Origin: Alphaproteobacteria bacterium
GTDB lineage: Bacteria; Pseudomonadota; Alphaproteobacteria; SP197
Direction of reading: 5' to 3'
Assembly: GCA_964291265.2 (NCBI GenBank)
Contig: OZ219747.1
Coordinates: 1,728,001 to 1,792,000 of the forward strand
Length of the DNA stretch: 64,000 bases
Shown here: positions 21,978 through 39,671 of the stretch, one piece after another
Numbering within the stretch: the first letter of the stretch is position 1
How the letters are laid out: each line of letters opens with the position of its first letter
Position numbers and translations under genes: made by a program
Notes under the pieces: generated by a model
Databases searched by the model: none
What the model was told of the DNA's origin: nothing
The model's input: the letters and a program-made list of their open reading frames with translations, nothing else

Positions 21978-22009
21978 GAACTCCCTCCCTTTGGTTCCTC
22001 AACGCCGCA

Positions 22010-22896: not shown

Positions 22897-23207
22897 GAAG
22901 AAACACGACCCTGACAAAGCGCGGCAAATCGCCGAAATCCCGCCGTTCTATGCAGCCATCAACGTAACTACTCACCCCCTACTGATGACGGATCGTTTTT
23001 CCTGACGGGTTCGGATCCGGCATTGTCTCTTGCCGCCTTCACTTGCTCGCTTCCGATGATCGGATGTGCGTGTTCCGACTGACAAGAAGCGGATCGATCT
23101 TCGGCTTCAGCTCCACGTTCCGGCCTTATATGGCCAGGTTTTGTCCCCGTGATGATGCAATCATCCACAGCGGTTGGCTGCCTTTCCAATCCTCTGGAGA
23201 TATGCGC

Positions 23208-23236
23208 TTGACATTGTAGGAGGGGCACTCTACATG
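23208..23236 (+). promoter_or_regulatory. Possible sigma70 promoter of the MTase-tnpC operon
   Basis: TTGACA-17 nt-TACATG; the -10 is weak. Confidence 0.35.
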
Positions 23237-23270
23237 CTGGCCATCGGGGCGGTTTGCGTCGGAGATATTG

Positions 23271-23351
23271 ATGGCGGCATGGTATGGATCGAAGGCGACG
23301 ACGGGTCTGAGCCAGGCGATCGTCGCGGCCATGCCGCCGCATGACGTGTAG
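23271..23351 (+). pseudogene. 5' fragment of the split Dam-like adenine methyltransferase (MAAWYGSKATTGLSQAIVAAMPPHDV*)
   Basis: GGAG RBS; YGSK and MPPHDV motifs continue in frame into YIEAFLGGG across the 37280-37291 repeat. Confidence 0.92.
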
Positions 23352-23758
23352 CAGAATTAGGGGTGAGGTTGTGCCACTTTGTTCGACTGATTTACGTTCA
23401 ATGGTCTCTCGTTTCAGCGTTATCCTACCTCTGGTTATCGTCATGTCAACCCATGCATGCGCTGGCGTAGAGTCCATGCAACGGGGGGATTCCCGCGACG
23501 GATTGTGACACCTGGGGACATGCTGGGATCATCGAAGGACGAGAGCGACGGAACGACAGCGGCGCCGGGCCGATATCCCGCTCTGCATGGGGCATGAGCG
23601 GACATGCCATGAGATCACGTACGGTTATCCTGCTACAACGCCTTGTCATGGGTGTTTCATGGGGGTATAATCACTCCATTCTTCCCTCGATTGCCCACTT
23701 GCATGGACTGTCAAGGGACTGTTTCCCACACCAAGCACTCACGACACGGGAGAATCCC

Positions 23759-24088
23759 ATGGCCGGAAGACCTGCGGGCGAGAAGCGCAAGGCGCGTTCC
23801 GTGATGGCGACCGACAGCGAGTGGCAACGCATCCGTGAGGGCGCCGCGGCAGCCCGCCTGTCGATCTCGGACCACGTGTTGAAGGTGCTCCTGGCGCCGC
23901 CGTCACCACCGTTGCAAGCCGCGGGCACGTTCCTCTCGGCCCGGGTGCAGCGCCGGGTGGCGCGCGCCGTGCTGGTTCTGGAGTGCATCGAGAAGATGCG
24001 CCTCGATCGCGCCGAGCTGGGCTCGGCATGGGAAGAGATCGCCGCCGAGGTCGATGGATGGCTCGACGACGAGGCGGCGCTGGGATGA
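23759..24088 (+). CDS. Ribbon-helix-helix / MobC-like protein 1
   Basis: RSVMATDSEWQRIREGAAAARLSISDHV pattern; GGAG RBS. Confidence 0.7.
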   Translation: MAGRPAGEKRKARSVMATDSEWQRIREGAAAARLSISDHVLKVLLAPPSPPLQAAGTFLSARVQRRVARAVLVLECIEKMRLDRAELGSAWEEIAAEVDGWLDDEAALG

Positions 24089-24101
24089 CCGGGAGGACGC
24101 C

Positions 24102-24434
24102 ATGAAGCTCGCGCGGCGGCACTGCATCTACTGTGATCCTCGGACATGGGAGAAGATCCGCAGGCGCGCCCGCAAGGCGGGCATGCCGGTCTCGCGTTTC
24201 GGGGTGCTGTGCTGTCTCAAGGCTGTTGAGGAGGGCACGGCCGAGGCGGTTCAACCGTCCGGCCATGCCCTCGTGATACCGCCGGACCGGCAGCGTCGGC
24301 TCCACGACGACATCGAGGCCATCTGGAACACAGGCCACGTCATGCTGGACGAGTCGGGGGAGACGAAGATCGGCGTGCTGACGAGCAACGTGCTGCGCTT
24401 CCTGCGGCTGACCGAACCGGAGGAAGAAGAATGA
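24102..24434 (+). CDS. Ribbon-helix-helix / MobC-like protein 2
   Basis: HCIYCDPRTWEKIRRRARKAGMPVSRFG; GGAGG RBS. Confidence 0.7.
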   Translation: MKLARRHCIYCDPRTWEKIRRRARKAGMPVSRFGVLCCLKAVEEGTAEAVQPSGHALVIPPDRQRRLHDDIEAIWNTGHVMLDESGETKIGVLTSNVLRFLRLTEPEEEE

Positions 24435-24853
24435 GGACACCGCGCCAGCGGCAGCAGGGCATGTCGCATTCGATCTCCTGCACGGACGAGGAATGGGAGA
24501 TGATCTGCGAGGGCGCGGCCCGGGCGGGGATCGGCGCTTCGGCATGGTTCACACGGTGTGCGCTTGACGTGAACCCGCTGTCGGGGAAGGCGCGTCCCCT
24601 GGTCCTCGACGAAAGGCAACAGGAGAACCTGGTCAAGGCGATCACGCGCCTTGCCGAGCCGTTTTCGGGTCATCCGGAGAGACTGTCCCGCATCTGGGAG
24701 GATGTCCGGTATCTCCTGCGGAAACGCGTTCGGGCGCTGATGCGACAGGGCCGGTCCGACGAAGCGCGCGCCAGGCTTCGGGAGGCGTTCGGCGACAAGC
24801 GGGCCGCCTGGATCGAAAGCTGGGCGCGGCAGCGGCGCCATGGCGATGACTGA
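24431..24853 (+). CDS. Ribbon-helix-helix / MobC-like protein 3
   Basis: HSISCTDEEWEMICEGAARAGIGASAWF; ATGA coupling. Confidence 0.7.
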   Translation: MRTPRQRQQGMSHSISCTDEEWEMICEGAARAGIGASAWFTRCALDVNPLSGKARPLVLDERQQENLVKAITRLAEPFSGHPERLSRIWEDVRYLLRKRVRALMRQGRSDEARARLREAFGDKRAAWIESWARQRRHGDD

Positions 24854-24858
24854 GAGGA

Positions 24859-27800
24859 TCACATGGACATGTGAGGCCCCTTCTGATGAAGGATGTGCCG
24901 TTGCTCCCTCAGCTCGTCGGCCTGCTCGCGGCTCCTGATGAAGCGCTCCTTCTCGTTCGCCCAAGGCGCCCGGTAGCAGCCGCGCCCGACGAGCTGACGG
25001 CGCTCGATCTCCACCTCGTGGACGGCGTCCCGTCCGTTGACGCTCCGCACCTGCAGGGTGCAGAGATCCTCGGCCTCGGTCTTGCCCGCGACAATCCGCA
25101 GAAGGACGCCTTCGCAGTGGCGTGGTTCGACGGCCACGCCGGGATCGATGTCATAGCGGCCGGGTATCCCGGTGGAAGGATCGGGCATCATGGTCCAGCG
25201 GAGCTGGTCTCCGACGACGACCTTGTGGCTGCAGGCGATGCGATACCAGTCGTCCGGCGTGGATCTCTCGCGGGCCAGGGCCGCATCGCGCAGCCTCTCG
25301 TCGCTCCAGGTGGCGCGGTGCACCGAGTGGCGCAGCAGGTCCGTGCATGCCACACGCTCGACCCGCCCCTTCCATGAGCCGTTGTCATGCTGCACGGCGC
25401 CGACGCGCTCGACGAGGAGCGTGTCCTTGCCGTGGCGTCCGCCGGTCTCGCCCGGCCACACCACCACCAGTTCCTGCACGGACCCGTCATGGGCGAGGCG
25501 CAGCCGGTCGCCGGTCACAAGCTGGCTCTTTCCGCGCCAGTCGATGGTGAACGCGCCACCGGGCGGGCGATTGCGCAACCGGTCGGCTTCTTCGCGCACC
25601 ATGGCGGCGATGAAGTCCAGGTCACGGCGAGCCTCGGCGAGCCTCTCCGTCACCTCGGCAAGGCCGGTCTCGAGTCGCTCCTTCAGGGCGGGAAGACAAG
25701 GCAGGTGCCGCGCGTAGCAATCCAGGTCCAGCAGGTCCTGGGCCCCGTCATGCCAGGCCTCGGCCTTCTTCTGCCAGCGTGGCCAGGCGTCCAGCAGGGT
25801 GATCGGCAGGTTGCCCTTGCCGGGCGCCTCTCGAAGCGCGCGATGCTCGCGGTCGAGACCCGCCATCTCCTTCGCCTGCGCCTCGATCCGGGCGCATTCT
25901 TTAGTGCAGGAGGCGTGTTCGGTGACGACGGGTTCGAGGCGCCGCCTTGCCACGGCGGGAAGACTGCGGTCGTCGGCCAGTTCACGCACGTCGTCGAACA
26001 CCGCGCCATAGCCTGCCGCATGAAAGGGGAGAACACCGTCACGCCTTGCCTGTCGGTGCAGCGCCTTGAGGTCCCTCGTCACCTCGAGGAACCGTTCGAA
26101 CGGTCTGTGCCGTTCCAGCTTGCCCAGCGCCCTCGAGATTCGTTCCGCGGCAGCGGAATCGAGATGGGGACGGTGCCGTTCACTCGCAAGCAGACCGCGG
26201 CCCCTTGCGGCGAGCTGGCGGGCAAGCGCGGCGAGCGAAGGGTAGTCCTCAAGGTCGGTGATGACGGTGTCGCGGCCCTTGCGGGAGCGGTCCCGCGCCT
26301 CGGCGTCAAGGACGCGCCAACGCCGGGTGTGTTCGCGGGCCTCGTCGAGGAACCGGGCGATGTCGCCGCGGCATGCCCGGCCTTCCGCATCGCCTGCCAG
26401 AACGCTGCGCGCCTGACGGGCGGCGGCCTCAGGCAAATCGTCGTGCTCCAGGAGCGCACTGGCCCGCGTGACAAGGCCGTGCCAGCCTACCATGCCGAAG
26501 GGAATCCGCTCCTCGGCACGCGCCTTCGTCAGAAGCCGGTGGTGGGCTGCATCGAACCGCGCCCAGGCGGCGTCGGTTCCGGCCAGCCTCTCGCAAACGC
26601 TCAGGCGTTCGCCCGCATCGCCCGCCTGCGCCTCGAGATGGGGTTGCCACAGGTCGGGCCTCCTCAGCATCGCCCGCCACTGCCGCCGGGCCTTGAGCCA
26701 GCGGTCCCGCCACGCCGGCCAACCGGGCCGTTCCGCCGTCGGCCGCTCCGGGGCTTCGGCCGCCAGCCGGCGGTAGCTGTCGAGCAGCCTGCCGGTCTCC
26801 GCGGCCAGGGCCGCCACCCTGTGCTCGCGATCCCGGGCCTGCGCCTCGTCGGCAAGCACGGCGCGCACGGACGAGCGCACCGGCTGCGGCACGTTCTTCA
26901 TCGCCGCCAGCACGCGCGCCCGGGCCACGAGATCGTCATGACCCTCGACATGGTAGGGGATCGTGTTCCGGGCGGCGGCGCGTGCGTCAACGGCCCGACG
27001 CTGCGCCTCGAACCGGGCACAGGCCTCGTCACATGTCCGGGCTTCCCGGAGTGCACCGAGACATGCCGTGATCGCGCGGGAGAGCTTCGGCCGGGCGGCA
27101 AGGACGGGCCGGACCTCATGGTCCTCGCACATCTCCTGCCAGGCGGCCTCGATCGACGAGACGGCCGTGATCCACTCCGCGTAGCCGGCCGTCTCCACCA
27201 CGAGACGGGCCTCGCCGACGGCCTCTTCAACCAGGTCCCGACGCAGGTGAAGCAGCCTGCCGGCTTCGCCGTGCAGCGCCTCGATGTCGTGCAGGGGATC
27301 GCGGACCTTCCCGCCTTTCCCGTCGTCCGGGGCGCCTGCCTCCTCAGGCGGCGGACCTTCGGCCACGAGCGCTCCGCCCTCGTCTTTGTGTCGCACTTCG
27401 TGGCGCATCGCGGCCTTCTCCCCGGGCGAAGGCCGGCGCATCGTCTTCTCCGGGACCGCGGCCCGGAGCTCGTCGGGCGTGACGCCGATCGCCTCCAGGG
27501 CCGTCGCCCTCTCGCCGGTGTTCGCCTCCAGCGTCTCGATCAGCTGCTCGCCGTTGTCGGTCAGCACCATGACATGATCGCGGGCACGGCTGATCTCGAC
27601 ATAGAAGGTCGCCTGGTCGGTCAACAGGCCGTGTCCGGAATCGAGGACCGCGATGACGCCGTCCGCCGTGCTGCCCTGGGCCCCGTGCACCGTCGAACTC
27701 CAGGCATGGTCGATGTGGCGCAGCTGGGGATCCTCGTGCTTGAGCGACAGCATGCCGCCATCGGCGGTGCGCAGTCGCACCCGCCTGCCGGTGATCGCCA

Positions 27801-30213
27801 CGATCTCCGCCTGTTCGCCGTTCACCAGGGCGCGCTCCTTGTCGTTGCGCGTCCAGCGGATGCGGTCGCCGGCTCTGAGTTCGATGGCACGGGGCTCGTA
27901 GACCTCCAGGCGGTAGCGGATGTGTCCCTCCGGCCTGATCCGGCGGCTTGTGCCGTCGGGATGGGAGAGTAGCACATGGTCGCCCTCGATGCCGGTCACC
28001 GTGCAGGCCTCGTCGGCCTTCACCCGGTAGTTCACGAGGTCCTGGTGGAACACCACCACGTCGCCTTCCCCGTAGTTGCGCACATCCGCCTTCTCGGCGC
28101 GCGTCATGCCGAGCCCGACCAGGCGTTCGAGCTGCAGGACCTGTCCGTGCAGCACGCCCTCGGCCGCCAGGCCCTCGCGGACCGTCCGGTTGATGTCGGC
28201 GCGCAAGGCGTGGGTCGGGGCCAGGAGCAGCGTGCGGGCGCGGGCGTCTGCATCCAGCTCCAGCCAGGCCCGCGCCGCCTTCTCCGCCAGGTCGTCGTGC
28301 GCCACCTCGACGAGGCCGGCGCCCAGGAGACGCACCGCCTCGCCGGGTTCGCCCTCCAGGACCGACAGGACCGCCGCCTTCAGATCCGGGCTGCGCTGGC
28401 GGCGGATGTCGCTCATCTGCGCCGTCGCCATCCCGGCCTGCTGCAACTGCCGGAACGGCTGGCCGGCATCGACCGGGCGGAGCTGGCCGGTGTCGCCCAC
28501 CAGCACCAGGCGGGCGATGTCGAGGTTCCGCGCGATGCGCAACAGGGAACGCATCTGCGCCGTCGACACCATCGATGCCTCGTCCAGCACCACGACCGAC
28601 CCGGCGAAGAGCTCGAGAAGCTTCCTGTCAGGACTCCGTCCGATGTCCTCGGCGTCTGCCGCCTGGCAACGCGTGAGGAACCATTGCAGGGTGCGCGCAT
28701 GGATGCCCGCTTCGCGCTCCAGGACGCGCGATGCCGCAGCCGAGGGAGCAAGGCCGATGATCCGGCGTTCCCCGGCGAGAGCGCGGACCTGGCGCAGCAT
28801 GGTGGTCTTGCCGGTCCCGGCACGGCCCTGGACGCCGATGATCCGGTCCCTGGAGAGGAGAATGGCCCGCACCGCGTCGCACTGCCCCTCGGTCAGGCCC
28901 GATCCCGCCAGACGTGCCGCGATATCCCCGTCGCGGGCCAGGGTCCCGGCCCGGCCGAGGCCGGCCTTCATCATGGCGATCACCGCGCGTTCCGCCTTCA
29001 GGGTCCGGTCGGTGACGAAGGCGCGGTCGGCGCGCCGCAACGAGGCGTCGACCAGGTGGCCGTCCCTCACCAACTGCTCGATCGCCTGCCTGATCTCATC
29101 CAGCGCATGGCGCCCCGGCGAGTGGGCCAGCGCCAGCGTCTCGAGCTCGTGCGCCGCGAACACCGATTGCCGCTCCTCGAGGTGTTCCGTCGTGCGGGCC
29201 ACGATCTCCAGGGCCGACAGGTCCTCGCCCGCCTCTGTCGGCCGACGAGCCCGGGCGGCCGCCAGGTCGGCGTCGAGGCCGAGATCACGTACCCGCTCCG
29301 CCCACACCGTCTCCAGCATCGCCCGCAGCGGTTCGTCCTTGCGCCGCCGCGTGGCCAGCGTCGCCACCTGCGACGCGGCCGTGCTGTGCTCCCAGCCCCT
29401 CTCGCGCAGGTAGGCGAGGATCTCGCTGCGCCGCGTCGAGAACGCATCCCGCAGCCTCCGGTCGTAGCCCGCGATCTCGAAGCTCGGGATCCGTCCCGCC
29501 ATGGCGGGACGGACATCGTAGCCCCGTTCCATCAGCCGCCGCGACAGCTCGTTGCGGTAGTAGGCGCCGATCTGCCGGGCATGGCGGTGGAGCAGGGTGG
29601 CCTCGATGCTGCGCCAGCGCCCCTGCGGGTCGCGCGTCATGTTCGCGATCACGGCATGGGTGTGAAGCTGGGGGTCGAGATTGCGGCTCGCGACATGGCG
29701 GAACGTGGCCGCGACCATGTGGGGCGCCTTGATCCGTGGACGCCGGCGCGTCGCGGGATCCCAGCCGCGGGTCTCCAGGAGGTTGGCCTCGATCCAGTCC
29801 AGGGTCGCCCGCACCGCCGCGTCGTGGGCCTGCACCACGCCGCGGTCGCCATGGGGATGGCGCTTCGTCGGCAGCAGGGCCGCAAGGGAAACGGACTTGG
29901 GCGCCGAGAAGGTGATGTCAAGCCCCGGACGGTGCTCATGGGCGCCATCGCGCCTGCGCCCAAGGCGGATGCCGCAACCGGGCACATGGCCGGCCAGGAG
30001 AGACTCGAACTTGCCGGCGGCGACATGGAGGTCGGGCCGCAGACCCAGGGCCATCGCTCCCCTGCCGTGCCAGAAGCTGGCGTTGCGGTGTTCCGCGTTC
30101 TTGGCCCGGCCGGCATCGCCCTTCGCCCCGGCGGCCGTATAGTAGCCGCCCTCGCGGCGCAGGTAGTCGGCCGTGGCCGACGCCGATGTCAGGTTGCGGA
30201 CCGACGCAACCAT
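24859..30213 (-). CDS. MOBF (TrwC/TraI-like) relaxase-helicase with long C-terminal extension
   Basis: DYL..GGYY, DITFSAPKSVS, DPQLHTH, FSTRR, GRAGTGKT, VLDEASM, TVHGAQG, YVEISRAR. Confidence 0.93.
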   Translation of the reverse strand: MVASVRNLTSASATADYLRREGGYYTAAGAKGDAGRAKNAEHRNASFWHGRGAMALGLRPDLHVAAGKFESLLAGHVPGCGIRLGRRRDGAHEHRPGLDITFSAPKSVSLAALLPTKRHPHGDRGVVQAHDAAVRATLDWIEANLLETRGWDPATRRRPRIKAPHMVAATFRHVASRNLDPQLHTHAVIANMTRDPQGRWRSIEATLLHRHARQIGAYYRNELSRRLMERGYDVRPAMAGRIPSFEIAGYDRRLRDAFSTRRSEILAYLRERGWEHSTAASQVATLATRRRKDEPLRAMLETVWAERVRDLGLDADLAAARARRPTEAGEDLSALEIVARTTEHLEERQSVFAAHELETLALAHSPGRHALDEIRQAIEQLVRDGHLVDASLRRADRAFVTDRTLKAERAVIAMMKAGLGRAGTLARDGDIAARLAGSGLTEGQCDAVRAILLSRDRIIGVQGRAGTGKTTMLRQVRALAGERRIIGLAPSAAASRVLEREAGIHARTLQWFLTRCQAADAEDIGRSPDRKLLELFAGSVVVLDEASMVSTAQMRSLLRIARNLDIARLVLVGDTGQLRPVDAGQPFRQLQQAGMATAQMSDIRRQRSPDLKAAVLSVLEGEPGEAVRLLGAGLVEVAHDDLAEKAARAWLELDADARARTLLLAPTHALRADINRTVREGLAAEGVLHGQVLQLERLVGLGMTRAEKADVRNYGEGDVVVFHQDLVNYRVKADEACTVTGIEGDHVLLSHPDGTSRRIRPEGHIRYRLEVYEPRAIELRAGDRIRWTRNDKERALVNGEQAEIVAITGRRVRLRTADGGMLSLKHEDPQLRHIDHAWSSTVHGAQGSTADGVIAVLDSGHGLLTDQATFYVEISRARDHVMVLTDNGEQLIETLEANTGERATALEAIGVTPDELRAAVPEKTMRRPSPGEKAAMRHEVRHKDEGGALVAEGPPPEEAGAPDDGKGGKVRDPLHDIEALHGEAGRLLHLRRDLVEEAVGEARLVVETAGYAEWITAVSSIEAAWQEMCEDHEVRPVLAARPKLSRAITACLGALREARTCDEACARFEAQRRAVDARAAARNTIPYHVEGHDDLVARARVLAAMKNVPQPVRSSVRAVLADEAQARDREHRVAALAAETGRLLDSYRRLAAEAPERPTAERPGWPAWRDRWLKARRQWRAMLRRPDLWQPHLEAQAGDAGERLSVCERLAGTDAAWARFDAAHHRLLTKARAEERIPFGMVGWHGLVTRASALLEHDDLPEAAARQARSVLAGDAEGRACRGDIARFLDEAREHTRRWRVLDAEARDRSRKGRDTVITDLEDYPSLAALARQLAARGRGLLASERHRPHLDSAAAERISRALGKLERHRPFERFLEVTRDLKALHRQARRDGVLPFHAAGYGAVFDDVRELADDRSLPAVARRRLEPVVTEHASCTKECARIEAQAKEMAGLDREHRALREAPGKGNLPITLLDAWPRWQKKAEAWHDGAQDLLDLDCYARHLPCLPALKERLETGLAEVTERLAEARRDLDFIAAMVREEADRLRNRPPGGAFTIDWRGKSQLVTGDRLRLAHDGSVQELVVVWPGETGGRHGKDTLLVERVGAVQHDNGSWKGRVERVACTDLLRHSVHRATWSDERLRDAALARERSTPDDWYRIACSHKVVVGDQLRWTMMPDPSTGIPGRYDIDPGVAVEPRHCEGVLLRIVAGKTEAEDLCTLQVRSVNGRDAVHEVEIERRQLVGRGCYRAPWANEKERFIRSREQADELREQRHILHQKGPHMSM

Positions 30214-30637
30214 GGATCGTCATCCCGGCGCAAGGCCTCGGGCCATGCGATGGCCGGAGAACGAAGCAACCTCGTGCAAGACGTCTCGGGGGCGTGGCGC
30301 ATGATCCTCGGGATGGAGCGGACTCGGACAGCGCCCATCATACCGTCCACGTCCGCACGGCGGGAAACCGACAACAAGCCGCACTGCACCATGCATCGCC
30401 ATGTTCGGAGCGGACAGGGGACATGCCGCCGGTCCGGCATGCCTTGTGGTCGGCACGACCACGAAGAAAGGGATGGCGTCCATGTCCCCCTTCGGCAAGG
30501 GTAACCGGCGCCGCGCACGTCCCTCAACAGGAACTGCTATCATCGATCGGCATGGACCGGTCGCCGCGGCGGCCGGACCGTCACGGATGCGGACGGCATC
30601 CCGATCGACGAGACCCGGAACCCTGCAGGCGACGACG

Positions 30638-31960
30638 ATGGCGCTTCACCTTGTTCACCACGATCTCTCCCCGGCATATGAACTGACGGAGGACGAACAG
30701 CAGGCCCTGCGCCGGATGGCCGACGGCGATCGGAGCGAGGATCTCCACGCGCCCGTCCTCGAGATCCTGGTGCGGGCGCACACGGAACGCCTGTGGCTCG
30801 CCTGCGACTGCCGGGGCGAGAGCGGCAGGCCTCCGGTCAACGGACCCTGTCGCAACCGCTCAGGCCGCTACTACTGGCGCCGCCTGCCACCACCGCACGT
30901 GGCGCATGCCAAAGGCTGCGTCTACTCCAGCATCACCGTCACGCGCCAGGCCGGGGACCCGGAAACCCGGGCGCCGGTGGAACCGTCCGACGACAGGTTC
31001 TTCACGGTTCTCCCGATCGAGCCGGAGGATGAGCAGGTCGCCGAACCGGACGCCCTGCCGGACCACCGCGGGTCGCGGCACACAAACCGCCCCTCGAAGC
31101 TGCGCCAGAGGCTGTTCGAACTCATGGTGTATGCCGGCCTCAACCGTCTTCCCGATGCCGAAACCGCGAACGCCAGGGAATGGTCGAGGCGGATCAGGCA
31201 GGCCGCAAGGGGGATCGAGATCGCGCCCGAACGCTCGCTGGGTGACCTCGTCTTCCCCTACCGGCGCATGTGGCGGATGGACTGGATCGACGCTCACATG
31301 CAGGACCTCGCAAGAACCTGGCCGGATGGTCACCGGCCCCAGGCGTTCGTCTGTGGAGCCGTCCGGGGCGTGGACGATCAAGGCGTCACCGGCGCCAGGG
31401 GATCACGCCTCGACGTCGCCTCCCGGGTCACGCGGCCCATGATTGGCGGCAAGGCGGTGCGCCCGCCTTGCCTCTTCATGGGCGTGGTGGGCCTGGCGGA
31501 AGACGCCACCTCCTTCGCCTGCCTCTCCGGCCATGCCCAGCCCATCGTCGCCATGAACTGCCCGGTGCCGGTGGAATCCAGCGCCGAGCGCAAGGCGTTC
31601 GGCACGCTGAGGAAGACCCTCAGGATCATGAGGCGCGAGTTCGATGCCGTGAGGTTCACCCTCGAGAAACCGCTGTTCGAAACCGACACGCAGTACGGGC
31701 CGTGCCTTCCCGACTTCGTCATCCGGGCTCACCCCGATGCCTGGGAGGGTCGGGACAGCGTCGACTTCATGATCGAGGTCATGGGCTTCGAGGACGAGGG
31801 CTACCGCCGGCGCAAGGAAGACACCCACCAGGCCATGAGAACCCTCGGCACGATGTGCCTCATGGAAGCGAACTGGTTCGACAGGCCCCGGGGGCTGGCA
31901 GCGGCAGGAACCAACGTCACCGACAAGATCCGCGCCGTGCTTCGAAGACGGCTGGCCTGA
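30638..31960 (+). CDS. DUF1173-like protein with Cys/His motif and C-terminal PD-(D/E)xK-like region
   Basis: WLACDC, HAKGC, PVESSAER, LPDFVI...IEVMGF...YRRRK; start uncertain. Confidence 0.6.
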   Translation: MALHLVHHDLSPAYELTEDEQQALRRMADGDRSEDLHAPVLEILVRAHTERLWLACDCRGESGRPPVNGPCRNRSGRYYWRRLPPPHVAHAKGCVYSSITVTRQAGDPETRAPVEPSDDRFFTVLPIEPEDEQVAEPDALPDHRGSRHTNRPSKLRQRLFELMVYAGLNRLPDAETANAREWSRRIRQAARGIEIAPERSLGDLVFPYRRMWRMDWIDAHMQDLARTWPDGHRPQAFVCGAVRGVDDQGVTGARGSRLDVASRVTRPMIGGKAVRPPCLFMGVVGLAEDATSFACLSGHAQPIVAMNCPVPVESSAERKAFGTLRKTLRIMRREFDAVRFTLEKPLFETDTQYGPCLPDFVIRAHPDAWEGRDSVDFMIEVMGFEDEGYRRRKEDTHQAMRTLGTMCLMEANWFDRPRGLAAAGTNVTDKIRAVLRRRLA

Positions 31961-32236
31961 CGTCTGCGTGGGAGCCGGGGCAAGGGCATGCGAGCCAGCT
32001 CCACCGAGGATTCAAGCCAGCCATTCAGCCGTCCATTGAACCTCTGTAGTAGTTTTCGTGAATCACCTGCATCGGTATCGAAAGTCACAGGGTGCGTTGT
32101 CGCTGCGCCCTGTCTTCGGAAGACCACGTCGGTGGAGGACAGCGCCACTGCCCGGATGCGAAGTCCGTGGAGACGGGTGCAGGGACGTCGCGCCCGCAGG
32201 AACGACACGCTGTTCAAATCAAACGGAATGGTTTCA

Positions 32237-32479
32237 TCAGTACTGCCGATCGGCTATAGCGCAAACAACAGACCGGCGCTGGTGGGAGGCGTGGGGCTGC
32301 TTCGCTCGTTCGACGGGTGGTTGCCATTGATCCAACAACAGACCCGCCTTCTTCGCGTCTTCGTAGCTCTCGATGTCCTCGTGCCCGACTCGCTTCGATC
32401 GCCAATGTCCGTCGATACCAGAAAACCCATTTCCTTTGAGAATTTTCCCGCACACGGGACACTCCTTACCGCCCTTCAT
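32237..32479 (-). CDS. Small CxxC...H...H zinc-finger-like protein
   Basis: CPVCGKILKGNGFSGIDGHWRSKRVGH; GGAGG RBS; homologue at 57785. Confidence 0.65.
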   Translation of the reverse strand: MKGGKECPVCGKILKGNGFSGIDGHWRSKRVGHEDIESYEDAKKAGLLLDQWQPPVERAKQPHASHQRRSVVCAIADRQY

Positions 32480-32834
32480 CGTCCGCCCTCCCGTCACACG
32501 GGAAATGCGCCCGTAGGGCTGAGGTGACCACGACTAGGGGGTGGTGGTCAAGCTCTTCGGGATTTCTTCGCATCCATATTCGCACGGCATCCCGAATGTC
32601 CCCGCTGGTGCTGCCAGATGTGCAGAACTTCAACTGTGGATCGAAACCGGTGTAGTCCCAAATGTTTTCTAATGCATCTCGAACACCGATGACGTACATC
32701 ATAAAAGCCCCTTCCAACGCTATGTCGTCAGAAGTCGCCCAATCCAACAAATGGTTGCCATCTTGAAAGGCCAGTGTCTCTTTCGGTACTGCAACCAAGG
32801 CTGTGCATATCGCGCCGATCAGCCATTTTCTCAC
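32466..32834 (-). CDS. Rap1a/Tai-family immunity-like secreted protein
   Basis: Signal peptide, DGNHL, YVIGVRD, FC, NPEELDH, ALRAHFPC. Confidence 0.75.
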   Translation of the reverse strand: MRKWLIGAICTALVAVPKETLAFQDGNHLLDWATSDDIALEGAFMMYVIGVRDALENIWDYTGFDPQLKFCTSGSTSGDIRDAVRIWMRRNPEELDHHPLVVVTSALRAHFPCDGRADDEGR

Positions 32835-32968
32835 TCGGCATCTCCGAGACGGCGGTGCAACGCGGTCCGGTACGGACTTGGTGCGGCGGAACAGGGCGAG
32901 GACCGGCTTCTCGAGCGTCGCGCCCACGAGATCGTGCTGCTTCGGATCAGACATAGAAACGCCTCTGA

Positions 32969-34192
32969 TCATTGCACCGCCCTCCATTGAGCCATGGTCT
33001 TGCCGCCCTTACTCCGGTTGCAACCGGAACAAAGCAGTTGAAGGTTGTCGGGGTGATCAGTTCCACCCTTCGACCTGGGTAGAATATGATCCACATCCAT
33101 CACGCGAAACGGGAAGTGCGTGTTGCATCCCACACAGACGCCCTCCTGTTCCCCATAGAGGCGATGACGGTGCGTCCGGTAGTTGGGAAGATCGCCAAGG
33201 TCCGAGCGCTTCGGTGGGTCTGTGATCGCAATTGCGCCGCCCCATAGATTGCCGCCAAGATGCTTCCCGCCCTTCTCGTTGGCGCGATCTTCCGCAATCC
33301 TCTCATTGACCAACTTCACGGCCAGCGCCGACAGGTCGATGCCTGCCCACTGCCGCCCCATGCGATCTGCAGCTACCAACGCCGTCGCACAGCCGCAGAA
33401 CGGATCAAGCACTATGTCGCCGGGGTTGCTAGAAGCGCGGATTACGCGCTCTAGCAGTGCCAGAGGCTTCTGCGTCGGGTAACCAAGGCGCTCCGAGGAA
33501 GATCGCCCGATTGCGTTCATGTCCCAAACATCGCGCATTGAGGCCATAGTATACCAACGGCCAAATTCATCCTGATATTTCTCGACTCCTTTAAATCCAG
33601 GCGGCGCGCTTGTTGAATAAGATCTTTCTTTTTGAACGTTGAAAACGTGTTTGCTATGCTTCGCCGCATAGTACAGCAGAATGTCGTGCTTACGCCCGAA
33701 CCAACGCTTGCTAACACCGCCGGTTCGATAGGACCATACAATTTCGTTCAAGAAATTCTTATGCCCGAAAACTCCATCCATAAGCAGCTTAAGGTAGTGC
33801 GAAGCAGTGGGATCGCAATGCAGATAGATGCTCCCGGACGGCTTCAGAATGCGACTCATTTCCAGTAATCGCACGGCCATGAAGATGAGATATGACTGCA
33901 TACCCTTGCCGTGCGACTGGCGAGCGGCCTCGATCACGGAGTAGGCGGCGGGGTTGCGGTCTGCCAGTTCGCCATGCTCGTGGACGTCGATATCGTCCAA
34001 GGTCCACGCGTCTTTGAAAGCAGCGCCCGCTGCTTTGCTTCCTATCGGCGCCTCGTAGTGGCGATTGCTGTTGAACGGTGGGTCGAGATAGATCAAATCG
34101 ATACAGCCATCGTTCATGCCGCGCATGATCGACAGGTTGTCGCCAGTCCAGACCGTGCTGCTGGCGAAGTTCGCGAAGTTCGGTTCAGGCAT
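32969..34192 (-). CDS. N6/N4 DNA methyltransferase fused to a C-terminal HNH endonuclease
   Basis: IYLDPPF, YPTQKP, LDPFCGCAT; CVGC...DHILPRSKGG...NLQLLCSGCNRSK. Confidence 0.92.
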   Translation of the reverse strand: MPEPNFANFASSTVWTGDNLSIMRGMNDGCIDLIYLDPPFNSNRHYEAPIGSKAAGAAFKDAWTLDDIDVHEHGELADRNPAAYSVIEAARQSHGKGMQSYLIFMAVRLLEMSRILKPSGSIYLHCDPTASHYLKLLMDGVFGHKNFLNEIVWSYRTGGVSKRWFGRKHDILLYYAAKHSKHVFNVQKERSYSTSAPPGFKGVEKYQDEFGRWYTMASMRDVWDMNAIGRSSSERLGYPTQKPLALLERVIRASSNPGDIVLDPFCGCATALVAADRMGRQWAGIDLSALAVKLVNERIAEDRANEKGGKHLGGNLWGGAIAITDPPKRSDLGDLPNYRTHRHRLYGEQEGVCVGCNTHFPFRVMDVDHILPRSKGGTDHPDNLQLLCSGCNRSKGGKTMAQWRAVQ

Positions 34193-34197
34193 CGTTT

Positions 34198-34665
34198 TCA
34201 ATCTTCAATCGGCCGTTGCGTGATGGATAGAGAGGCTTCGCCAGTAATCGTCCCCGACATTGCTATTTCGAGCCGCATCGGTGTCGCAAGCCTAAGTGTG
34301 CCATCCGCCATAATGACGACTGTCGTCCGGTCTGGGAGTGCCGCATAGCGATGCCCATCTCGGAGCGGATACGTCGGAAGCTGATTGACGGTCTCCATCA
34401 GGCTGGCTAACTGCGCAGACTCCCGTGCCTCGAGCGCCATCTGTAGTGCGGTGCGAAGCGCCTTTTCTGATCCGACAGTTTCGATATTCAGCACCTGCTG
34501 TATCGAGGGCGACACAGAATTCTTCGCCTCAAGAGCCGCAATGCGCTTGCGAAGGCCCCAAAACCCGACCATCGTTAGAAGACTGCCTGACAGGAACCAC
34601 CCGACCCGTATGAACACTTCGGTGAATGTGGCACCCAAAATTGCTTGATATGTGAACTCTTCCAT
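34198..34665 (-). CDS. Hypothetical protein with N-terminal membrane anchor
   Basis: 155-aa ORF with a hydrophobic segment, abutting the MTase-HNH gene. Confidence 0.55.
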   Translation of the reverse strand: MEEFTYQAILGATFTEVFIRVGWFLSGSLLTMVGFWGLRKRIAALEAKNSVSPSIQQVLNIETVGSEKALRTALQMALEARESAQLASLMETVNQLPTYPLRDGHRYAALPDRTTVVIMADGTLRLATPMRLEIAMSGTITGEASLSITQRPIED

Positions 34666-34885
34666 CTGCGCATCATACCGCCTTCTGCCGCACCATCAAC
34701 CTCTTTGTAATCCCCTTGATTTAAGTAGGCTTGACTTTCTGACTGATGAGGCTCGCACCCAAGCTCTACGCCTTGAGGAATTCTCTCGTTGACGCCCTCA
34801 TTACGCATTGAACATCTCGGTTGGAGAACATGCAGATACGCTATCAATGGTTGGTGTACCCGTCCAGACTCCTTGCGCCGTCGGA

Positions 34886-36046
34886 TCACGAATCAGACAG
34901 ATCACAGAGCCGAGCAATGGCGGCTCCTGTGCGCTCGGCGGCGGCTTCCACGTCCCTGTCCTGGACATGCGCATAGCGCAGTGTCATGGAACAGCGGCTG
35001 TGGCCCAGGAGCCTGGCGACGATCGGCAATGGAATACCGCTCATGACCGCATGCGAGGCAAATGTGTGACGCAAGTCATGCAAGCGAACATCCTCGAGAC
35101 CGGCTTCCTTGCGAACCCTGTACCAAAGTCCGAGTTCACGTCCGCGTGGTCTCGCAGGATCACGCGGCGAGGGAAAGACCCAGGCGCTGCCCACCCTTGG
35201 CTGGCGCTCGACAAGTTCCCGGGCAACGGCTGGCAGCCAGACTTCGCGCGGTCCGGTCTTTGAATCCGTCAATCTGAGCGTGGCGCCATGGACCTCGCAC
35301 CATCGCAATCCGACGATTTCGTTGCGTCGGCACCCGGTCAGGAGGAGCAGGCGGATCATGTCAGCCTGGGCCTGGCGCGAGGGACGCTTCGCGACCAACC
35401 TGTCCAGTGTCCTGTAGAGACGGGCGACTTCCTCCCTGGACAGGAACCGCGTCAGGGCCGGGCGTCTGTTTCGCTTTACGCCCCGCGTTGGATCGTTGCT
35501 GACATGGCCGCTCTCGACGGCAAACTTCATGATGCGGCGCAACGTTCCCAGCGTCTCGTTGGCGCCGCCCGGTGCAACCTGACTGTAGTCATGGAACCAC
35601 GCCTCGACATGACGAGGCCCGATGTGATCGAGTCGCAGGGAACCGAATGACGGCAGCAATCGCCCCTTCAGTTCGCGGACAAGGCGTGCGCGTCGCTGAG
35701 GTTTGCAGTGGTCGAGGACTGCTTCCTTCCATGGCCCTTCGGCGAAAGCGGAAAAGAGCGGGACGATCGTCTCAGCCTTGCCATCGCCGGACTGCTCCCG
35801 GGCCATGAGGGTCAGACAGTCTCGACGTGCCTCCTCGACGGTCTTCAGTGCGACGGGTCCGATGGTCACGCGCGCCGGGCTGTCGTTCCTGAAGCCCTGC
35901 CAGACATAGCTGCGATGGCCCGAGGGCCGAACCCGCACGCCAAGGCCGGCGATGCGAGTGTCCCAGACCGTATACTCGACCTCGCGTGGGCGGAGCTTCT
36001 CGACGGCAGCGTCCGTCAACCTCACCTTCCTCGTGCCGGTTCTCAT
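34886..36046 (-). CDS. Tyrosine integrase (second gene of pair 2)
   Basis: VWDTRIAGLGVRVRPSG; TGCR, SKTG, HDLRH, LGH, RYAH; ATGA overlap. Confidence 0.93.
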   Translation of the reverse strand: MRTGTRKVRLTDAAVEKLRPREVEYTVWDTRIAGLGVRVRPSGHRSYVWQGFRNDSPARVTIGPVALKTVEEARRDCLTLMAREQSGDGKAETIVPLFSAFAEGPWKEAVLDHCKPQRRARLVRELKGRLLPSFGSLRLDHIGPRHVEAWFHDYSQVAPGGANETLGTLRRIMKFAVESGHVSNDPTRGVKRNRRPALTRFLSREEVARLYRTLDRLVAKRPSRQAQADMIRLLLLTGCRRNEIVGLRWCEVHGATLRLTDSKTGPREVWLPAVARELVERQPRVGSAWVFPSPRDPARPRGRELGLWYRVRKEAGLEDVRLHDLRHTFASHAVMSGIPLPIVARLLGHSRCSMTLRYAHVQDRDVEAAAERTGAAIARLCDLSDS

Positions 36047-37164
36047 GCCAGGCCCTCCGACAGGACCGGCGCCACGACATCGATGGCCTCGCGAACGGCC
36101 CCGTCGCCGAGATGCGTATAGCGCAGGGTCGTGGACGCCCTGCCGTGACCGAGAAGCTTGCCGATAGTGAGAATTGTCTCGCCATTCTGGAGTGCGACAC
36201 TGGCATAGCTGTGGCGAAGGTCGTGCAGGCGGATGTCGTCCAATCCGGCCTCCGCGCGGACCTGCCGCCAGAATCCGTCGAGATGACACCTCTTCGGTGT
36301 CGTTGCCGAAAAGACCCATATGTTGTTCCGCGGCAGGTTGTCGAGCACGTCGCGCGCGGCTTGCGCCAACCAGATCGTGCGTGGGCCAGTCTTGCTGTCC
36401 GTCAGGAACAATCTGCCTTCACGGTAGTCCGTCCACCTGAGCATGATGATCTCGCTCTTGCGGCAGCCCGTGAGGAGAAGCATCTGCATGGCGGCCGTGT
36501 GCAGGGGACGCCTTGACCGGTGGCGCGCCAGGACAGCTGCAAGACTGCGGTACTCCTCCGGCAGGAGGAACCGTTCGCGCCTGGTCTCGCGGTAGCGGCG
36601 GATACCGGCACAAGGGTTGCTGTTCTCCGGCCTCAAGCCCCAGGCTTCGGCCTTCTGCATGATGACGGAAAGGACCGGCGCAGACCGGTTTGCCGCCGCC
36701 GGCGTTGCATGGAGAGAACGGAACCATGTTGCGACATCCTGCCGGGTGATGGCGCTGATCATGCGACCCGCGAAGAACGGCAGGATCTGTCTGCGAAGGT
36801 AGATCCGGTTGACCCTGAGGGTGTCGGGTTTCCAGAGCCGTTCGTGGTGGACAAGGACTTCCTGTGCGACGGTCTCGAAGAGTGCGTCCCTCTCGACCCC
36901 GGGGTCCGCAGGGCCGCCGTTCCTGTACGCCGCCAGCATGGCGCGTGCCCGTTGACGCGCCTGCGCCACGGTCACGGCGCCGGCATCGTCGAAGGTCTTC
37001 CAGATCCTCCGGCCCTCGTGCTGGGAGTGAATGAAGTAGCGTCTGGTGCCCGAGGGCATGATGCGGATACCGAAGCCCTTCAGTTCGGTATCGCGTGCGT
37101 CCAGGATGACCTTCCCTGGCTTGAGCTTGTCAACCCGGTGCTGGGTGAGGTGCGTTGTGGCCAT
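36043..37164 (-). CDS. Tyrosine integrase (first gene of pair 2)
   Basis: GGAGG RBS; GFGIRIMPSG; TGCR, SKTG, HDLRH, LGH, RYTH. Confidence 0.93.
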   Translation of the reverse strand: MATTHLTQHRVDKLKPGKVILDARDTELKGFGIRIMPSGTRRYFIHSQHEGRRIWKTFDDAGAVTVAQARQRARAMLAAYRNGGPADPGVERDALFETVAQEVLVHHERLWKPDTLRVNRIYLRRQILPFFAGRMISAITRQDVATWFRSLHATPAAANRSAPVLSVIMQKAEAWGLRPENSNPCAGIRRYRETRRERFLLPEEYRSLAAVLARHRSRRPLHTAAMQMLLLTGCRKSEIIMLRWTDYREGRLFLTDSKTGPRTIWLAQAARDVLDNLPRNNIWVFSATTPKRCHLDGFWRQVRAEAGLDDIRLHDLRHSYASVALQNGETILTIGKLLGHGRASTTLRYTHLGDGAVREAIDVVAPVLSEGLA

Positions 37165-37279
37165 GTTGCCTCCGGTGTTCTGTGACATCGGGGGAAGAAA
37201 GGCATCGCCTTTCCCTCTGATGTTGCAGAAACGAGAGGAGTTAAGTATGTTATATCAGTTGATTAGCACCACAGGTGCG

Positions 37280-37886
37280 GCATGACGTGTACATCGAGGC
37301 GTTCCTTGGGGGCGGCGCGATCATGAAGCGCAAGCCACCGGCGCTGCGCAGCATCGGCATTGACCTCAACCGCCGGGCGATCGACACCTTCCGCTGTGAC
37401 TATCCGGTGGAGCTTCACCAAGGCTGCGCCCTGCGTTTTCTCGAGACCTTCGCCTTCCAGGGCCGCGAGCTGGTCTACTGCGACCCGCCTTACGTGCAGT
37501 CGACGCGCCGGTCGCAGCGCCGCTACCGCTTCGACTGCACGGACGACGACCATGTTGCGCTCCTTGACATCCTGACGTCGCTGCCCTGCCAGGTGATGAT
37601 CTCCGGCTATCCCTCGCGGCTCTACGACACGCACCTCGCCGGCTGGCGCTCGGCCGAGGTCCAGGTCAACAACCAGGCCTGCGTTGTCACCGAGAAGCTG
37701 TGGTTCAACTTCGCACCGGGCCGACCGCACTGGCATACGTGTGCGGGCAGGAACTCGATCGACCGCCAGCGCATCAAGCGCCTCGCAGAGAGCTGGGCGC
37801 GGCGCTACCGGACGATGCCCGAAGGCGAGCGGCTCGCCGTGCTGGCGGCAGTCATGGCGGTGGAGGCGTCGTCATGGCGAGCGTGA
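37280..37886 (+). pseudogene. 3' part of the split Dam-like (D12 class) adenine methyltransferase
   Basis: HDVYIEAFLGGGA (motif I), YCDPPY (motif IV), MISGY, TEKLW; N-terminus lies at 23271. Confidence 0.92.
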
Positions 37887-39352
37887 ACGGCACGTCTGTG
37901 CGCCAGGAGGCCGACATCTTCCAGAAGCAGTTCCAGGATCTCCGCAAGCAGGGCAAGGTCAACCAGGAGTGCGAGGAGCTCTTCCGCGGCATGCTGATGC
38001 TGATAAAGCTGTTGCTGACCGTGCTCATGGAGAAGATCACACGTAAGACAAGCCGGAACTCCGGTCTGCCGCCATCGCAGACTGACAAGGACGAGAGCGC
38101 GAGGCGCACCGGGAGCAACGGCAAGGGCCCGAAGCCGAACCAGCAGACGGGCGACAACCTGCGCACGACCACCGTCGAGGAGACGATCGTCGTTGATGCC
38201 TGCGACGCCTGCGGCGCCGACCTCCACGACGTTGACCCCGTCGACCGGGAGTGCCGCGTCCTCTACGACATCGTGTTCGAAGTCGTCGAGCGCCGCGTCG
38301 AAGCCGAGATCAAGGAATGTCCGAAGTGCCGGGCCCGGACCAAGGGCCGGTTCCCAGACAACATGCCGGGCCCCCTGCAGTACGGCGTCAGCATCCAGGC
38401 CCTCGTCATCAACCTGCTGATCGCCCAGATGCTGTCCCTGCGTCGTGCCGTCTCGCTCGTGCACGCGATCTCCGGCATCAAGCTCTCCGAGGCGACCTGC
38501 CTCGGCTATGTCCGGCGCTTTCACGATGCCCTCGCATCATGGGAGGAGGCCGCCGTGGCCCATCTCCTGCAACAACCGGCCCTGCATGTCGACGAGACCG
38601 GCTTCCGGGTCGCCGGCAAGACCCAATGGCTCCATGTCGTCACCGACGGCACCCTGACGTGCAAGTTCCCGCACCCCAAGCGCGGCCGGGAGGCGATCGA
38701 AGAGATCGGCATCATCCCGCGCTACAAGGGCGTCCTGATCCACGACTGCTGGGCTGCCTACATGGGCTACGATCAATGCCGCCACCAACTGTGCGGCAGC
38801 CATCTCCTGCGCGAACTGACCTTCGTCGTCGAGTCCAACGGCTACCGCTGGGCGCGACTGATGAAAAGCCTGCTGCGCGAGGTCTCCCGCAGGGTCAACA
38901 AGAGCGCATCCAAGACCTTGAACGAGGCCGACCGCCGGGCCGTGCGCAAGCGCTACCGCACCATCCTCACCCAGGGCGCCAAGGAACTGCCCGACATCCC
39001 GCCACGGACGAAAGGAAAACGTGGACGCATCGCAAAGTCCGACGCGCACAACCTGCATGAACGTCTCGTGAAACACGAGAAGTCCGTCCTGCGCTTCATG
39101 AAGGACCCCAACGTCAGTTTCACCAACAATACCGGAGAGCAGAAGATCAGGATGACAAAGGTCAAGATCAAGGTGTCCGGATGTTTCCGCACCATGCCCC
39201 ACGCCAAAGCATGGTGCCGAGGCTCAAGCTACCTCACCACCATGGACGCACTCGGCTACAACCCTCACGTCGCCATCCACATCGCCCTCGACGGAAAGGC
39301 CGTAGACATCCTCAACCAACACTACGGACAACCAGACCCTAACAAGGGGTGA
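37874..39352 (+). CDS. tnpC: IS66-family transposase
   Basis: SRNSGLPPS, CDAC/CPKC finger, HVDETG, IHDCW, HQLCGSHLLREL, FTNNTGEQKIR. Confidence 0.94.
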   Translation: MASVNGTSVRQEADIFQKQFQDLRKQGKVNQECEELFRGMLMLIKLLLTVLMEKITRKTSRNSGLPPSQTDKDESARRTGSNGKGPKPNQQTGDNLRTTTVEETIVVDACDACGADLHDVDPVDRECRVLYDIVFEVVERRVEAEIKECPKCRARTKGRFPDNMPGPLQYGVSIQALVINLLIAQMLSLRRAVSLVHAISGIKLSEATCLGYVRRFHDALASWEEAAVAHLLQQPALHVDETGFRVAGKTQWLHVVTDGTLTCKFPHPKRGREAIEEIGIIPRYKGVLIHDCWAAYMGYDQCRHQLCGSHLLRELTFVVESNGYRWARLMKSLLREVSRRVNKSASKTLNEADRRAVRKRYRTILTQGAKELPDIPPRTKGKRGRIAKSDAHNLHERLVKHEKSVLRFMKDPNVSFTNNTGEQKIRMTKVKIKVSGCFRTMPHAKAWCRGSSYLTTMDALGYNPHVAIHIALDGKAVDILNQHYGQPDPNKG

Positions 39353-39671
39353 GTAGTTACCCATCAACAATCTGGAAGGGCCCGGCGCCTGGCGAAGTGG
39401 AGCGCCACGGTGTTGCGTGTGATGGTGCGCTTCTTGACCTTTCCGACTTCGCGCCGGGGGCTCGTGGAGCATGATGGCGGGTGGAGGGGACTGGTTGAGG
39501 AGGGCTTTGATGCACATGGCTACCGTGCATGGGCGTACCGCGGACGTATGTCAAGCACAAGGTGCATTCATACATGGGTACACAGTGAAGCCTGATGAAT
39601 CCAACAAATAACGCAAAATCAGTGAGTTGTTGTGAAGATCAGCAGGAAATCGTCCGGAACTTCGGCATAAG

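What the first reader, a model, noticed from the sequence alone, without database searches (positions are those of the whole stretch)
23271..37886. Excision-reconstituted DNA methyltransferase: a 13.9-kb twin-integrase element splits a Dam-like gene
Seen: codons 1-26 (MAAWYGSK...MPPHDV) at 23271 end in TAG only because of the junction. GCATGACGTGTA recurs at 37280-37291 followed by C-ATC-GAG (YIEAFLGGG...DPPY). Recombination between the repeats gives an uninterrupted 675-nt, 224-aa ORF and a 13941-bp circle. Known: excision-controlled genes exist (skin/sigK, nifD, comK). Inference: integration state could switch host adenine methylation. It would also separate the overlapping IS66 tnpC from its upstream promoter.
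Basis: partly seen in the sequence, partly recalled or inferred. Interest (0 to 1): 0.92.

Follow-up and report, generated by a model that had tools for sequence, protein, structure and literature searches.

The report
Twin-integrase element with drifting six-base target
The split methylase-like gene is only one of 17 copies carried by a jumping gene in this genome (12 are intact), so it is unlikely to be an on/off switch; the 13.9-kb insert belongs to a widespread family of two-integrase mobile elements that sit in many unrelated genes with a variable six-base target repeated at both ends, which likely lets their target choice drift.

Summary
In detail: 12-bp repeats 13,941 bp apart split a 675-nt Dam-like gene. 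The switch reading fails. The gene is a passenger of a 2,456-bp IS66-type element; the genome has 16 other copies, 12 with the gene intact. The protein is 42% identical to plasmid Upf31, which in its one published test repressed its own promoter and showed no DNA methylation. The insert is a likely mobilizable integrative element (two coupled tyrosine integrases, MobF relaxase) of a family found in 14 of 22 genus genomes. Its right end reads GCACC-N3-GGTGCG, then a variable 6-mer, then GTGT; 74 ends carry 67 different 6-mers, and only 3 lie in this gene family, at three different positions. The same 6-mer usually recurs at the left end (23 of 33, chance 1.75), unlike Tn916, Tn554 or SEs. So the 12-bp repeat is a 6-bp duplicated overlap, the family's GTGT and two chance bases. 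Most likely mechanism: integration guided by a 6-bp overlap that tolerates a mismatch and drifts; de novo target duplication is not excluded. No excised circle was seen. The scan noted this two-integrase module before on other DNA.

The parts
22956..22963 (+). 8-bp target duplication of the IS66-type element, left copy (right copy 39361-39368)
22964..22980 (+). Left terminal inverted repeat of the IS66-type element
23208..23234 (+). TTGACA hexamer followed by a 5-bp inverted repeat (23215-23219 / 23230-23234); candidate promoter-operator of the methylase-like gene (inferred; not listed by the promoter scan at its thresholds)
23271..23350 (+). 5' piece (codons 1-26) of the Upf31/Dam-like gene
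23340..23345 (+). Left copy of the 6-bp overlap CATGAC
23346..23420 (+). Element's left end, starting GTGTAGCA (shared with sister elements); holds one arm of a 10-bp subterminal inverted repeat at 23406-23415
23759..24853 (+). Three small ORFs (23759-24088, 24102-24434, 24431-24853); the second and third give weak NikA-like ribbon-helix-helix hits below the Pfam cut-off
24859..30213 (-). TrwC/MobF relaxase-helicase, 1784 aa
30401..31960 (+). Cargo ORF resembling DUF1173 / endonuclease-like proteins (language-model look-alike only; start uncertain)
   Evidence: no Pfam hit
32466..32987 (-). Rap1a-domain cargo gene
32969..34201 (-). Cargo N6/N4 DNA methylase fused to an HNH domain, 410 aa
34886..36046 (-). 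Integrase B, 386 aa, arm-binding plus catalytic tyrosine-recombinase domains, catalytic motifs intact; start overlaps the stop of integrase A (ATGA)
36043..37164 (-). Integrase A, 373 aa, about 35% identical to integrase B, catalytic motifs intact
37228..37280 (+). Element's right end: other arm of the 10-bp inverted repeat (37228-37237) and the family motif GCACC-N3-GGTGCG(G) at 37266-37280
37281..37290 (+). Right copy of the overlap CATGAC followed by the target's GTGT
37292..37886 (+). 3' piece of the Upf31/Dam-like gene (FLGGG, DPPY, C-terminal helices)
37883..39352 (+). IS66-family transposase, 489 aa, start overlapping the stop of the methylase-like gene
39344..39360 (+). Right terminal inverted repeat of the IS66-type element

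Best explanation
A 13.9-kb element with two coupled tyrosine integrases and a MobF relaxase, likely an integrative mobilizable element, sits in one of 17 copies of an IS66-borne Upf31/Dam-like gene, and the gene break is most likely an incidental result of the family's very short target rather than a switch. Shown: the family's right end, a variable 6-mer and a fixed GTGT; the 6-mer usually repeated at the left end; many unrelated targets; 12 intact gene copies. Inferred (about 55%): the excised circle carries the 6-mer between its two ends, the integrases bind the element's arms and the GTGT half-site, and integration prefers a chromosomal site whose 6 bases match the circle's, with one mismatch tolerated; each mismatched event can reset the 6-mer, so target choice drifts along a lineage. 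Under this rule 17 of the 22 sites that matched CATGAC-GTGT in this genome lay in copies of this IS, which would explain the hit. Also inferred: transfer by a helper's conjugation machinery, and that the split protein is an autorepressor of the IS operon more than a host methylase.
For: 16 other IS copies, 12 with an intact gene, 10 fully intact with 8-bp duplications. Ten intA-intB pairs in the genome; resolved targets are a group II intron-like repeat (twice), two other IS-like repeats, a DEAH-type helicase gene and this IS. intA homologues in 14 of 22 genus genomes, up to 23 matches each. All 33 right ends found by a pattern that did not ask for GTGT have GTGT 6 or 7 bases on. 67 different 6-mers among 74 distinct ends. 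Own 6-mer plus GTGT on the element side in 23 of 33 relatives against 1.75 expected with other elements' 6-mers; 15 of 16 identical where the left junction was found from an empty site or gene continuity. Three one-mismatch end pairs. Closest element pairs in unrelated targets share the 6-mer within one base in 3 of 4 pairs at 93.6% identity or more, against 1.7% of random pairs. A read-derived variant begins exactly at GTGT (23346) behind a different 6-mer. Relaxase in 24 of 29 resolved elements. Methylase-family targets 3 of 74, at codons ~24, ~73 (opposite strand) and ~160. Upf31 match 42% over 220 aa, E 9e-62.
Against: No excised circle junction was seen, so current mobility is unshown (contigs only). 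Inheritance of the 6-mer rests on few pairs and a cut-off chosen after seeing the data: at 92.8% or more it is 3 of 7, and pairs at 90-94% differ as much as random pairs (3.58 vs 3.61 at positions 1-5); two left ends 94% alike differ at 3 of 6. Left junctions stayed unresolved for 7 of 33 relatives, for 9 of 10 further ends extended to 39 kb and for own element o917; these could hide non-matching ends. One-mismatch ends may be later point mutations. The split protein keeps DPPY in 112 of 120 homologues and a Dam-like fold, so methylase activity is not excluded.
Confidence: 0.85

Rival explanations
1. Same element family, different chemistry: the integrase pair inserts at almost any N6-GTGT site and the 6 target bases are duplicated afresh (donor overlap discarded, gaps filled from the target), a transposase-like target duplication made by tyrosine recombinases.
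For: 67 different 6-mers in 74 ends; 90-94% pairs as different as random; three sister elements with 89-94% alike left ends carry GCTATG, CGGTAG and AGGATG, each duplicated; no clear conservation left of the overlap in 29 targets.
Against: The closest pairs in unrelated targets share the 6-mer within one base far more often than chance (3 of 4, or 3 of 7; random rate 1.7%); two elements with different left ends chose the same site in a multicopy repeat; three end pairs differ by one base.
Confidence: 0.3
2. One reading: a regulated-gene-integrity switch in which excision turns on host adenine methylation.
For: Precise excision would restore a 224-aa ORF identical to intact copies; both integrases look intact; Dam-like motifs and fold.
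Against: 12 intact copies already present; target is IS cargo, not a single-copy host gene; family not dedicated to this gene or site; closest tested homologue did not methylate DNA (PMC11997246, section 10).
Confidence: 0.03
3. Tn916/CTnDOT-like transposition without overlap homology, with the matching ends here produced by chance or later repair.
For: Many unrelated targets; a single conserved half-site; last overlap base is G in 62 and C in 9 of 74, recalling IntDOT's need for identity next to the first cleavage (PMC2817482, abstract).
Against: That route leaves a donor-derived coupling sequence at one end (PMC5812530 passage; established knowledge); here 15 of 16 independently located pairs are identical and none differs by more than one base.
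Confidence: 0.08
4. A dead, fixed insertion: the element no longer moves.
For: No circle junction in three runs of one study; several decayed relatives in the genome.
Against: Integrases, relaxase and both ends are intact; the interrupted IS copy is 98-99.6% identical to intact copies, so the insertion is recent; contigs drop rare forms.
Confidence: 0.2

Closest known systems
Integrative mobilizable elements with P4/SXT-type arm-binding tyrosine integrases
   Same: Arm-DNA-bind_3 + Phage_int_M + Phage_integrase domains, direct repeat at both ends, MobF relaxase, no mating-pair genes among the ORFs scanned.
   Different: Two coupled integrases; target reduced to a variable 6-mer plus GTGT; 10-23 integrase matches per genome at unrelated sites instead of one conserved gene.
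Tn916 and CTnDOT (PMC5812530 passages; PMC2817482 abstract)
   Same: Tyrosine recombinase, many targets, short variable overlap.
   Different: They tolerate unlike overlaps and form heteroduplexes; here both ends nearly always carry the same 6-mer. They use one integrase (plus Xis for Tn916).
SEs, GInts, Tn554 (PMC10214605 passages)
   Same: Two tyrosine recombinases, 6-bp spacer at the ends.
   Different: Those carry the donor's 6 bp to one end (footprint, no duplication), use one ordinary and one large recombinase plus Tfp/Srap or TnpC, and lack mobilization genes; here two ordinary-sized integrases, duplication, and a relaxase in 24 of 29.
Regulated gene integrity elements (skin/sigK, nifD, comK; recalled, the TIGER paper was not held)
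   Same: Insert interrupts an ORF that precise excision would restore.
   Different: Target is one of 17 copies of IS cargo and the family has no fixed target.
Upf31 of IncP-1beta plasmid pBP136 (PMC11997246)
   Same: 224 aa / 675 nt, 42% identity over 220 aa, Dam-like N-terminal domain, helical C-terminal domain, W198 kept as W195, TTGACA-type site upstream.
   Different: Carried by an IS66-type element and coupled to its transposase; Y180 and F185 are not kept in this copy; no KorB context.
IS66 family, single-ORF (ISBst12-like, recalled) with a passenger gene
   Same: IS66 DDE transposase above the NCBIfam cut-off, terminal repeats starting GTAA, 8-bp duplication.
   Different: No tnpA/tnpB accessory genes; a methylase-like gene sits in their place, also in a second IS lineage with 33% transposase identity.

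Membership tests
Regulated gene integrity switch (skin/sigK type) | Precise excision restores the ORF | tested here: met
   (in silico only)
Regulated gene integrity switch (skin/sigK type) | Target is the cell's only functional copy | tested here: not met
   12 intact copies
Regulated gene integrity switch (skin/sigK type) | Integrase clade dedicated to that gene and site | tested here: not met
   3 of 74 ends, three positions
Regulated gene integrity switch (skin/sigK type) | Excision is regulated and changes a phenotype | not testable with these tools
   no RNA or raw-read run listed
Integrative mobilizable element | Intact site-specific recombinase at one end | tested here: met
Integrative mobilizable element | Relaxase without its own mating-pair genes | tested here: met
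   MobF above cut-off; no mating-pair family among the element ORFs scanned
Integrative mobilizable element | Direct repeats marking the ends | tested here: met
Integrative mobilizable element | Excises as a circle | tested here: inconclusive
   no circle junction listed in contigs
Integrative mobilizable element | Transfer in trans by a helper | not testable with these tools
   needs mating experiments
SE / GInt / Tn554 | One ordinary and one large recombinase plus Tfp/Srap or TnpC | tested here: not met
   373 and 386 aa, directly coupled; PMC10214605
SE / GInt / Tn554 | Donor-derived 6-bp footprint, no duplication | tested here: not met
   15 of 16 identical ends
Tn916 / CTnDOT type | Many unrelated target sites | tested here: met
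Tn916 / CTnDOT type | Unlike coupling sequences at the two ends | tested here: not met
IS66 family | IS66 DDE transposase | tested here: met
   NF033517 251 bits vs cut-off 180
IS66 family | Terminal inverted repeats and 8-bp duplication (feature recalled) | tested here: met
IS66 family | tnpA/tnpB accessory genes of canonical members (recalled) | tested here: not met
   only the methylase-like gene lies upstream
Dam / D12 adenine methyltransferase | SAM-binding and DPPY motifs, Dam-like fold | tested here: met
   PF02086 34.6 bits vs 22; top Foldseek hits E. coli Dam, TM 0.53
Dam / D12 adenine methyltransferase | Full-length Dam equivalence (TIGR00571) with the helical recognition domain between the motifs | tested here: not met
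   31 bits vs cut-off 115 for the 3' piece; only about 40 residues between the second motif and DPPY
Dam / D12 adenine methyltransferase | Methylates DNA | not testable with these tools
   nearest tested homologue negative, PMC11997246 section 10
Upf31-like autorepressor | Full-length similarity including the C-terminal domain | tested here: met
   42% over 220 aa, (the 675-bp pBP136 CDS was taken as upf31 from its length and position)
Upf31-like autorepressor | Aromatic residues needed for repression (Y180, F185, W198) | tested here: inconclusive
   W kept, Y and F not kept in this copy; family consensus has F
Upf31-like autorepressor | Represses its own promoter | not testable with these tools
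   needs a reporter assay

The most novel reading that the evidence does not exclude
A widespread two-integrase family inserts 10-50 kb cargoes at almost any N6-GTGT site and duplicates the six target bases afresh, so tyrosine recombinases would be making transposase-style target duplications; each hop would rewrite the element's own ends and leave it precisely excisable from any gene it hits.
Probability: 0.3. Interest if true: 0.8.

Novelty: new variant of a known kind. Interest (0 to 1): 0.45.

Why it matters
The proposed epigenetic switch is not there. What remains is a large family of mobile elements whose target rule differs from the described tyrosine-recombinase systems: neither one fixed site, nor unlike coupling sequences, nor a donor footprint. 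It explains why such elements so often look like 'excision-restored genes', gives a simple motif to map them, and offers a testable case of how site-specific integrases can become near-transposons. If the 6-mer guides targeting, specificity would be set by six DNA bases of the donor, which would be of use for integration tools.

Tried and rejected
tRNA or RNA-gene target: none near the element. A methylase-targeting clade: rejected, 3 of 74 ends at three positions. A separate fixed attB longer than 10 bp: no clear conservation left of the overlap or right of GTGT in 29 targets. Circle junction in public runs: none listed; three contig-only runs of one study, X1 may be the source sample; no RNA holder listed. 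Depth figures (element contigs 52-62, uninterrupted joint 900 in X1) fit the copy count but are not a copy-number measure. Sequence search of the methylase-like protein against PDB gave only spurious repeat-protein hits. Collection scans with the end motif are mostly chance: 40 of 247 matches had an integrase beside them, some of them duplicates. Distant integrase pairs on Shewanella and Vibrio plasmids (36-38%) lack the end motif, so I do not count them as members. The tree is the quick one, used only for grouping; two rows (L043, L045) were left out for short matches. Seven of 40 loci gave no motif; one search showed variant ends in four, three stayed unread. L402's left junction was not found. 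No complex prediction was run. Literature searches for a description of this module and of IS66 with a methylase passenger found none; the library lacks most subscription papers, the TIGER paper (gkaa156) was not held, and no supplements were read, so a description in a clade table could have been missed.
Full report
Observation. A 12-bp sequence lies at 23339-23350 and 37280-37291, 13,941 bp apart; the left piece reads 26 codons to a TAG; reading across the repeats gives a 675-nt, 224-aa ORF. The surrounding element is a 2,456-bp IS66-type unit (22964-39360 without the insert) with terminal inverted repeats and an 8-bp duplication, its transposase above the NCBIfam cut-off.

The target is multicopy IS cargo. 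The 12-mer occurs 18 times in the genome: the two junctions and 16 other copies of the same IS. Twelve of these have an intact 224-aa gene and 10 are intact throughout. A second IS lineage (63% gene, about 33% transposase identity) shows the same pairing here and in one other family's genome. Excision could therefore add one copy to twelve; it cannot switch a host function on. The protein has the D12 motifs and its model (mean pLDDT 82) is closest to E. coli Dam (TM 0.53), but with a short region between the motifs and a three-helix C-terminal tail. In PMC11997246 (passages, sections 10 and 14 read) Upf31 gave no GATC methylation and no SMRT signal and repressed its own promoter. Activity of this protein is untested; DPPY is kept in 112 of 120 homologues.

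The insert. From left to right: three small ORFs with weak ribbon-helix-helix hits, a 1784-aa MobF relaxase-helicase, cargo (DUF1173-like, Rap1a domain, an N6/N4 methylase-HNH fusion), and two coupled arm-binding tyrosine integrases of 386 and 373 aa with intact catalytic motifs. No mating-pair family was found among the ORFs scanned. The genome holds ten such integrase pairs and several remnants; homologues occur in 14 of 22 genus genomes with up to 23 matches, and 3550 proteins score E<=1e-40 among 8000 candidates scored. Of 247 motif matches in two collection scans 40 had an integrase beside them; the 17 distinct ones among the 80 titled genome loci are all from records titled as Alphaproteobacteria or groups within them.

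The end rule. Beside intA each element ends GCACC-N3-GGTGCG, then 6 or 7 bases, then GTGT. In one search the pattern did not ask for GTGT, yet 33 of 33 right ends had it. The 6 bases before GTGT take 67 values among 74 distinct ends, with G last in 62 and C in 9. The same 6-mer plus GTGT recurs on the element side in 23 of 33 relatives (1.75 expected), 24 after extension; two more differ by one base and seven stayed unresolved, two of them at contig ends. Of ten further ends extended to 39 kb only one was resolved. Where the left junction was located from an empty-site homologue or gene continuity, 15 of 16 were identical and one differed by one base. In the own genome six elements have identical ends and one (right end at window 2757) differs by one base. 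Left ends of the window's subfamily all start GTGTAGCA, and a variant in run X2 starts at 23346 behind another 6-mer. So the 12-bp repeat is CATGAC duplicated, the fixed GTGT, and one chance base on each side. Targets are unrelated; 3 of 74 lie in this methylase-like family, at three positions. Five of the 8 own elements with standard right ends lie in multicopy DNA, which holds 15% of candidate sites; selection for harmless sites or overlap guidance could each explain this.

Mechanism. Shown: anatomy, end rule, target spread. Inferred: excision to a circle and integration by the integrase pair. Two routes fit. (a) Overlap-guided integration with drift: the circle's 6-mer must match the target, one mismatch is tolerated, and mismatched events reset it. 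For: 3 of 4 pairs at 93.6% identity or more in unrelated targets are within one base (random rate 1.7%), three one-mismatch end pairs, two different elements in the same site of a multicopy repeat, and 17 of 22 matching sites in this genome lying in this IS. Against: the cut-off is post hoc (3 of 7 at 92.8%), pairs at 90-94% are as unlike as random, and kin are not independent. (b) Fresh duplication of any N6-GTGT target. I put (a) at about 55% and (b) at 30%. No circle junction was seen in three contig-only runs, which cannot show absence.

Comparison. It works like an integrative mobilizable element with relaxed specificity. It fails the tested defining features of regulated-gene-integrity switches, of SE/GInt/Tn554 (donor footprint, accessory proteins; PMC10214605, passages) and of Tn916/CTnDOT (unlike coupling sequences; PMC5812530 passages, PMC2817482 abstract). 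Passages of PMC8138268, PMC10111431 and PMC12884075 gave no matching description for the terms asked. Searches found no paper on this module; the TIGER paper was not held and is recalled only; supplements were not read. Earlier notes of this scan describe the same two-integrase module on other DNA, one with ACACC-containing sites (the reverse complement of GGTGT); these are unchecked AI notes and count as leads only.

Verdict. Real feature, wrong headline. Methylation switch about 3%. The value lies in the element family's target rule: new variant of a known kind, interest 0.45.

Noticed in passing
window 364-2757: A second member of the same twin-integrase family ends in this window; its left end lies about 35 kb away (G000:C2:1695394) and its two 6-mers differ by one base.
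   Followed up: partly
window 32969-34201 (-): The element carries its own N6/N4 DNA methylase fused to an HNH domain, a possible single-chain restriction-modification or defence gene in a low-GC stretch; if any methylation follows the element's presence, this gene is the better candidate.
   Followed up: partly
G000:C2:2191352-2194013: A 2.7-kb decayed sister element sits at the 3' end of a glutamine-synthetase-like gene; its left 6-mer GAGGTC matches the right 6-mer of an element in G004 (L399), while its own right junction no longer matches.
   Followed up: partly
L041, L050, L064, L069, L389, G000:C2:~4034780: A subgroup repeatedly occupies the same repeat-containing gene family with the 6-mer CCACTG, suggesting that some lineages have locked onto one site.
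   Followed up: partly
G000 whole genome: About 22% of the genome is repeated DNA and 15% is present in six or more copies, including about 30 copies of a group II intron-like repeat (identification recalled, not tested) with deep nesting of mobile elements.
   Followed up: no
window 41347-42001: Nucleotidyltransferase plus HepT-like gene pair, a toxin-antitoxin-type module (PADLOC PDC-S09 hit for the first gene).
   Followed up: no
window 18000-22000: Toprim-domain gene and an IS21-type istA/istB pair with long direct repeats just left of the IS.
   Followed up: no
L447-L449: Shewanella and Vibrio plasmids carry coupled integrase pairs at 36-38% identity with varied cargo but without this family's end motif.
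   Followed up: partly
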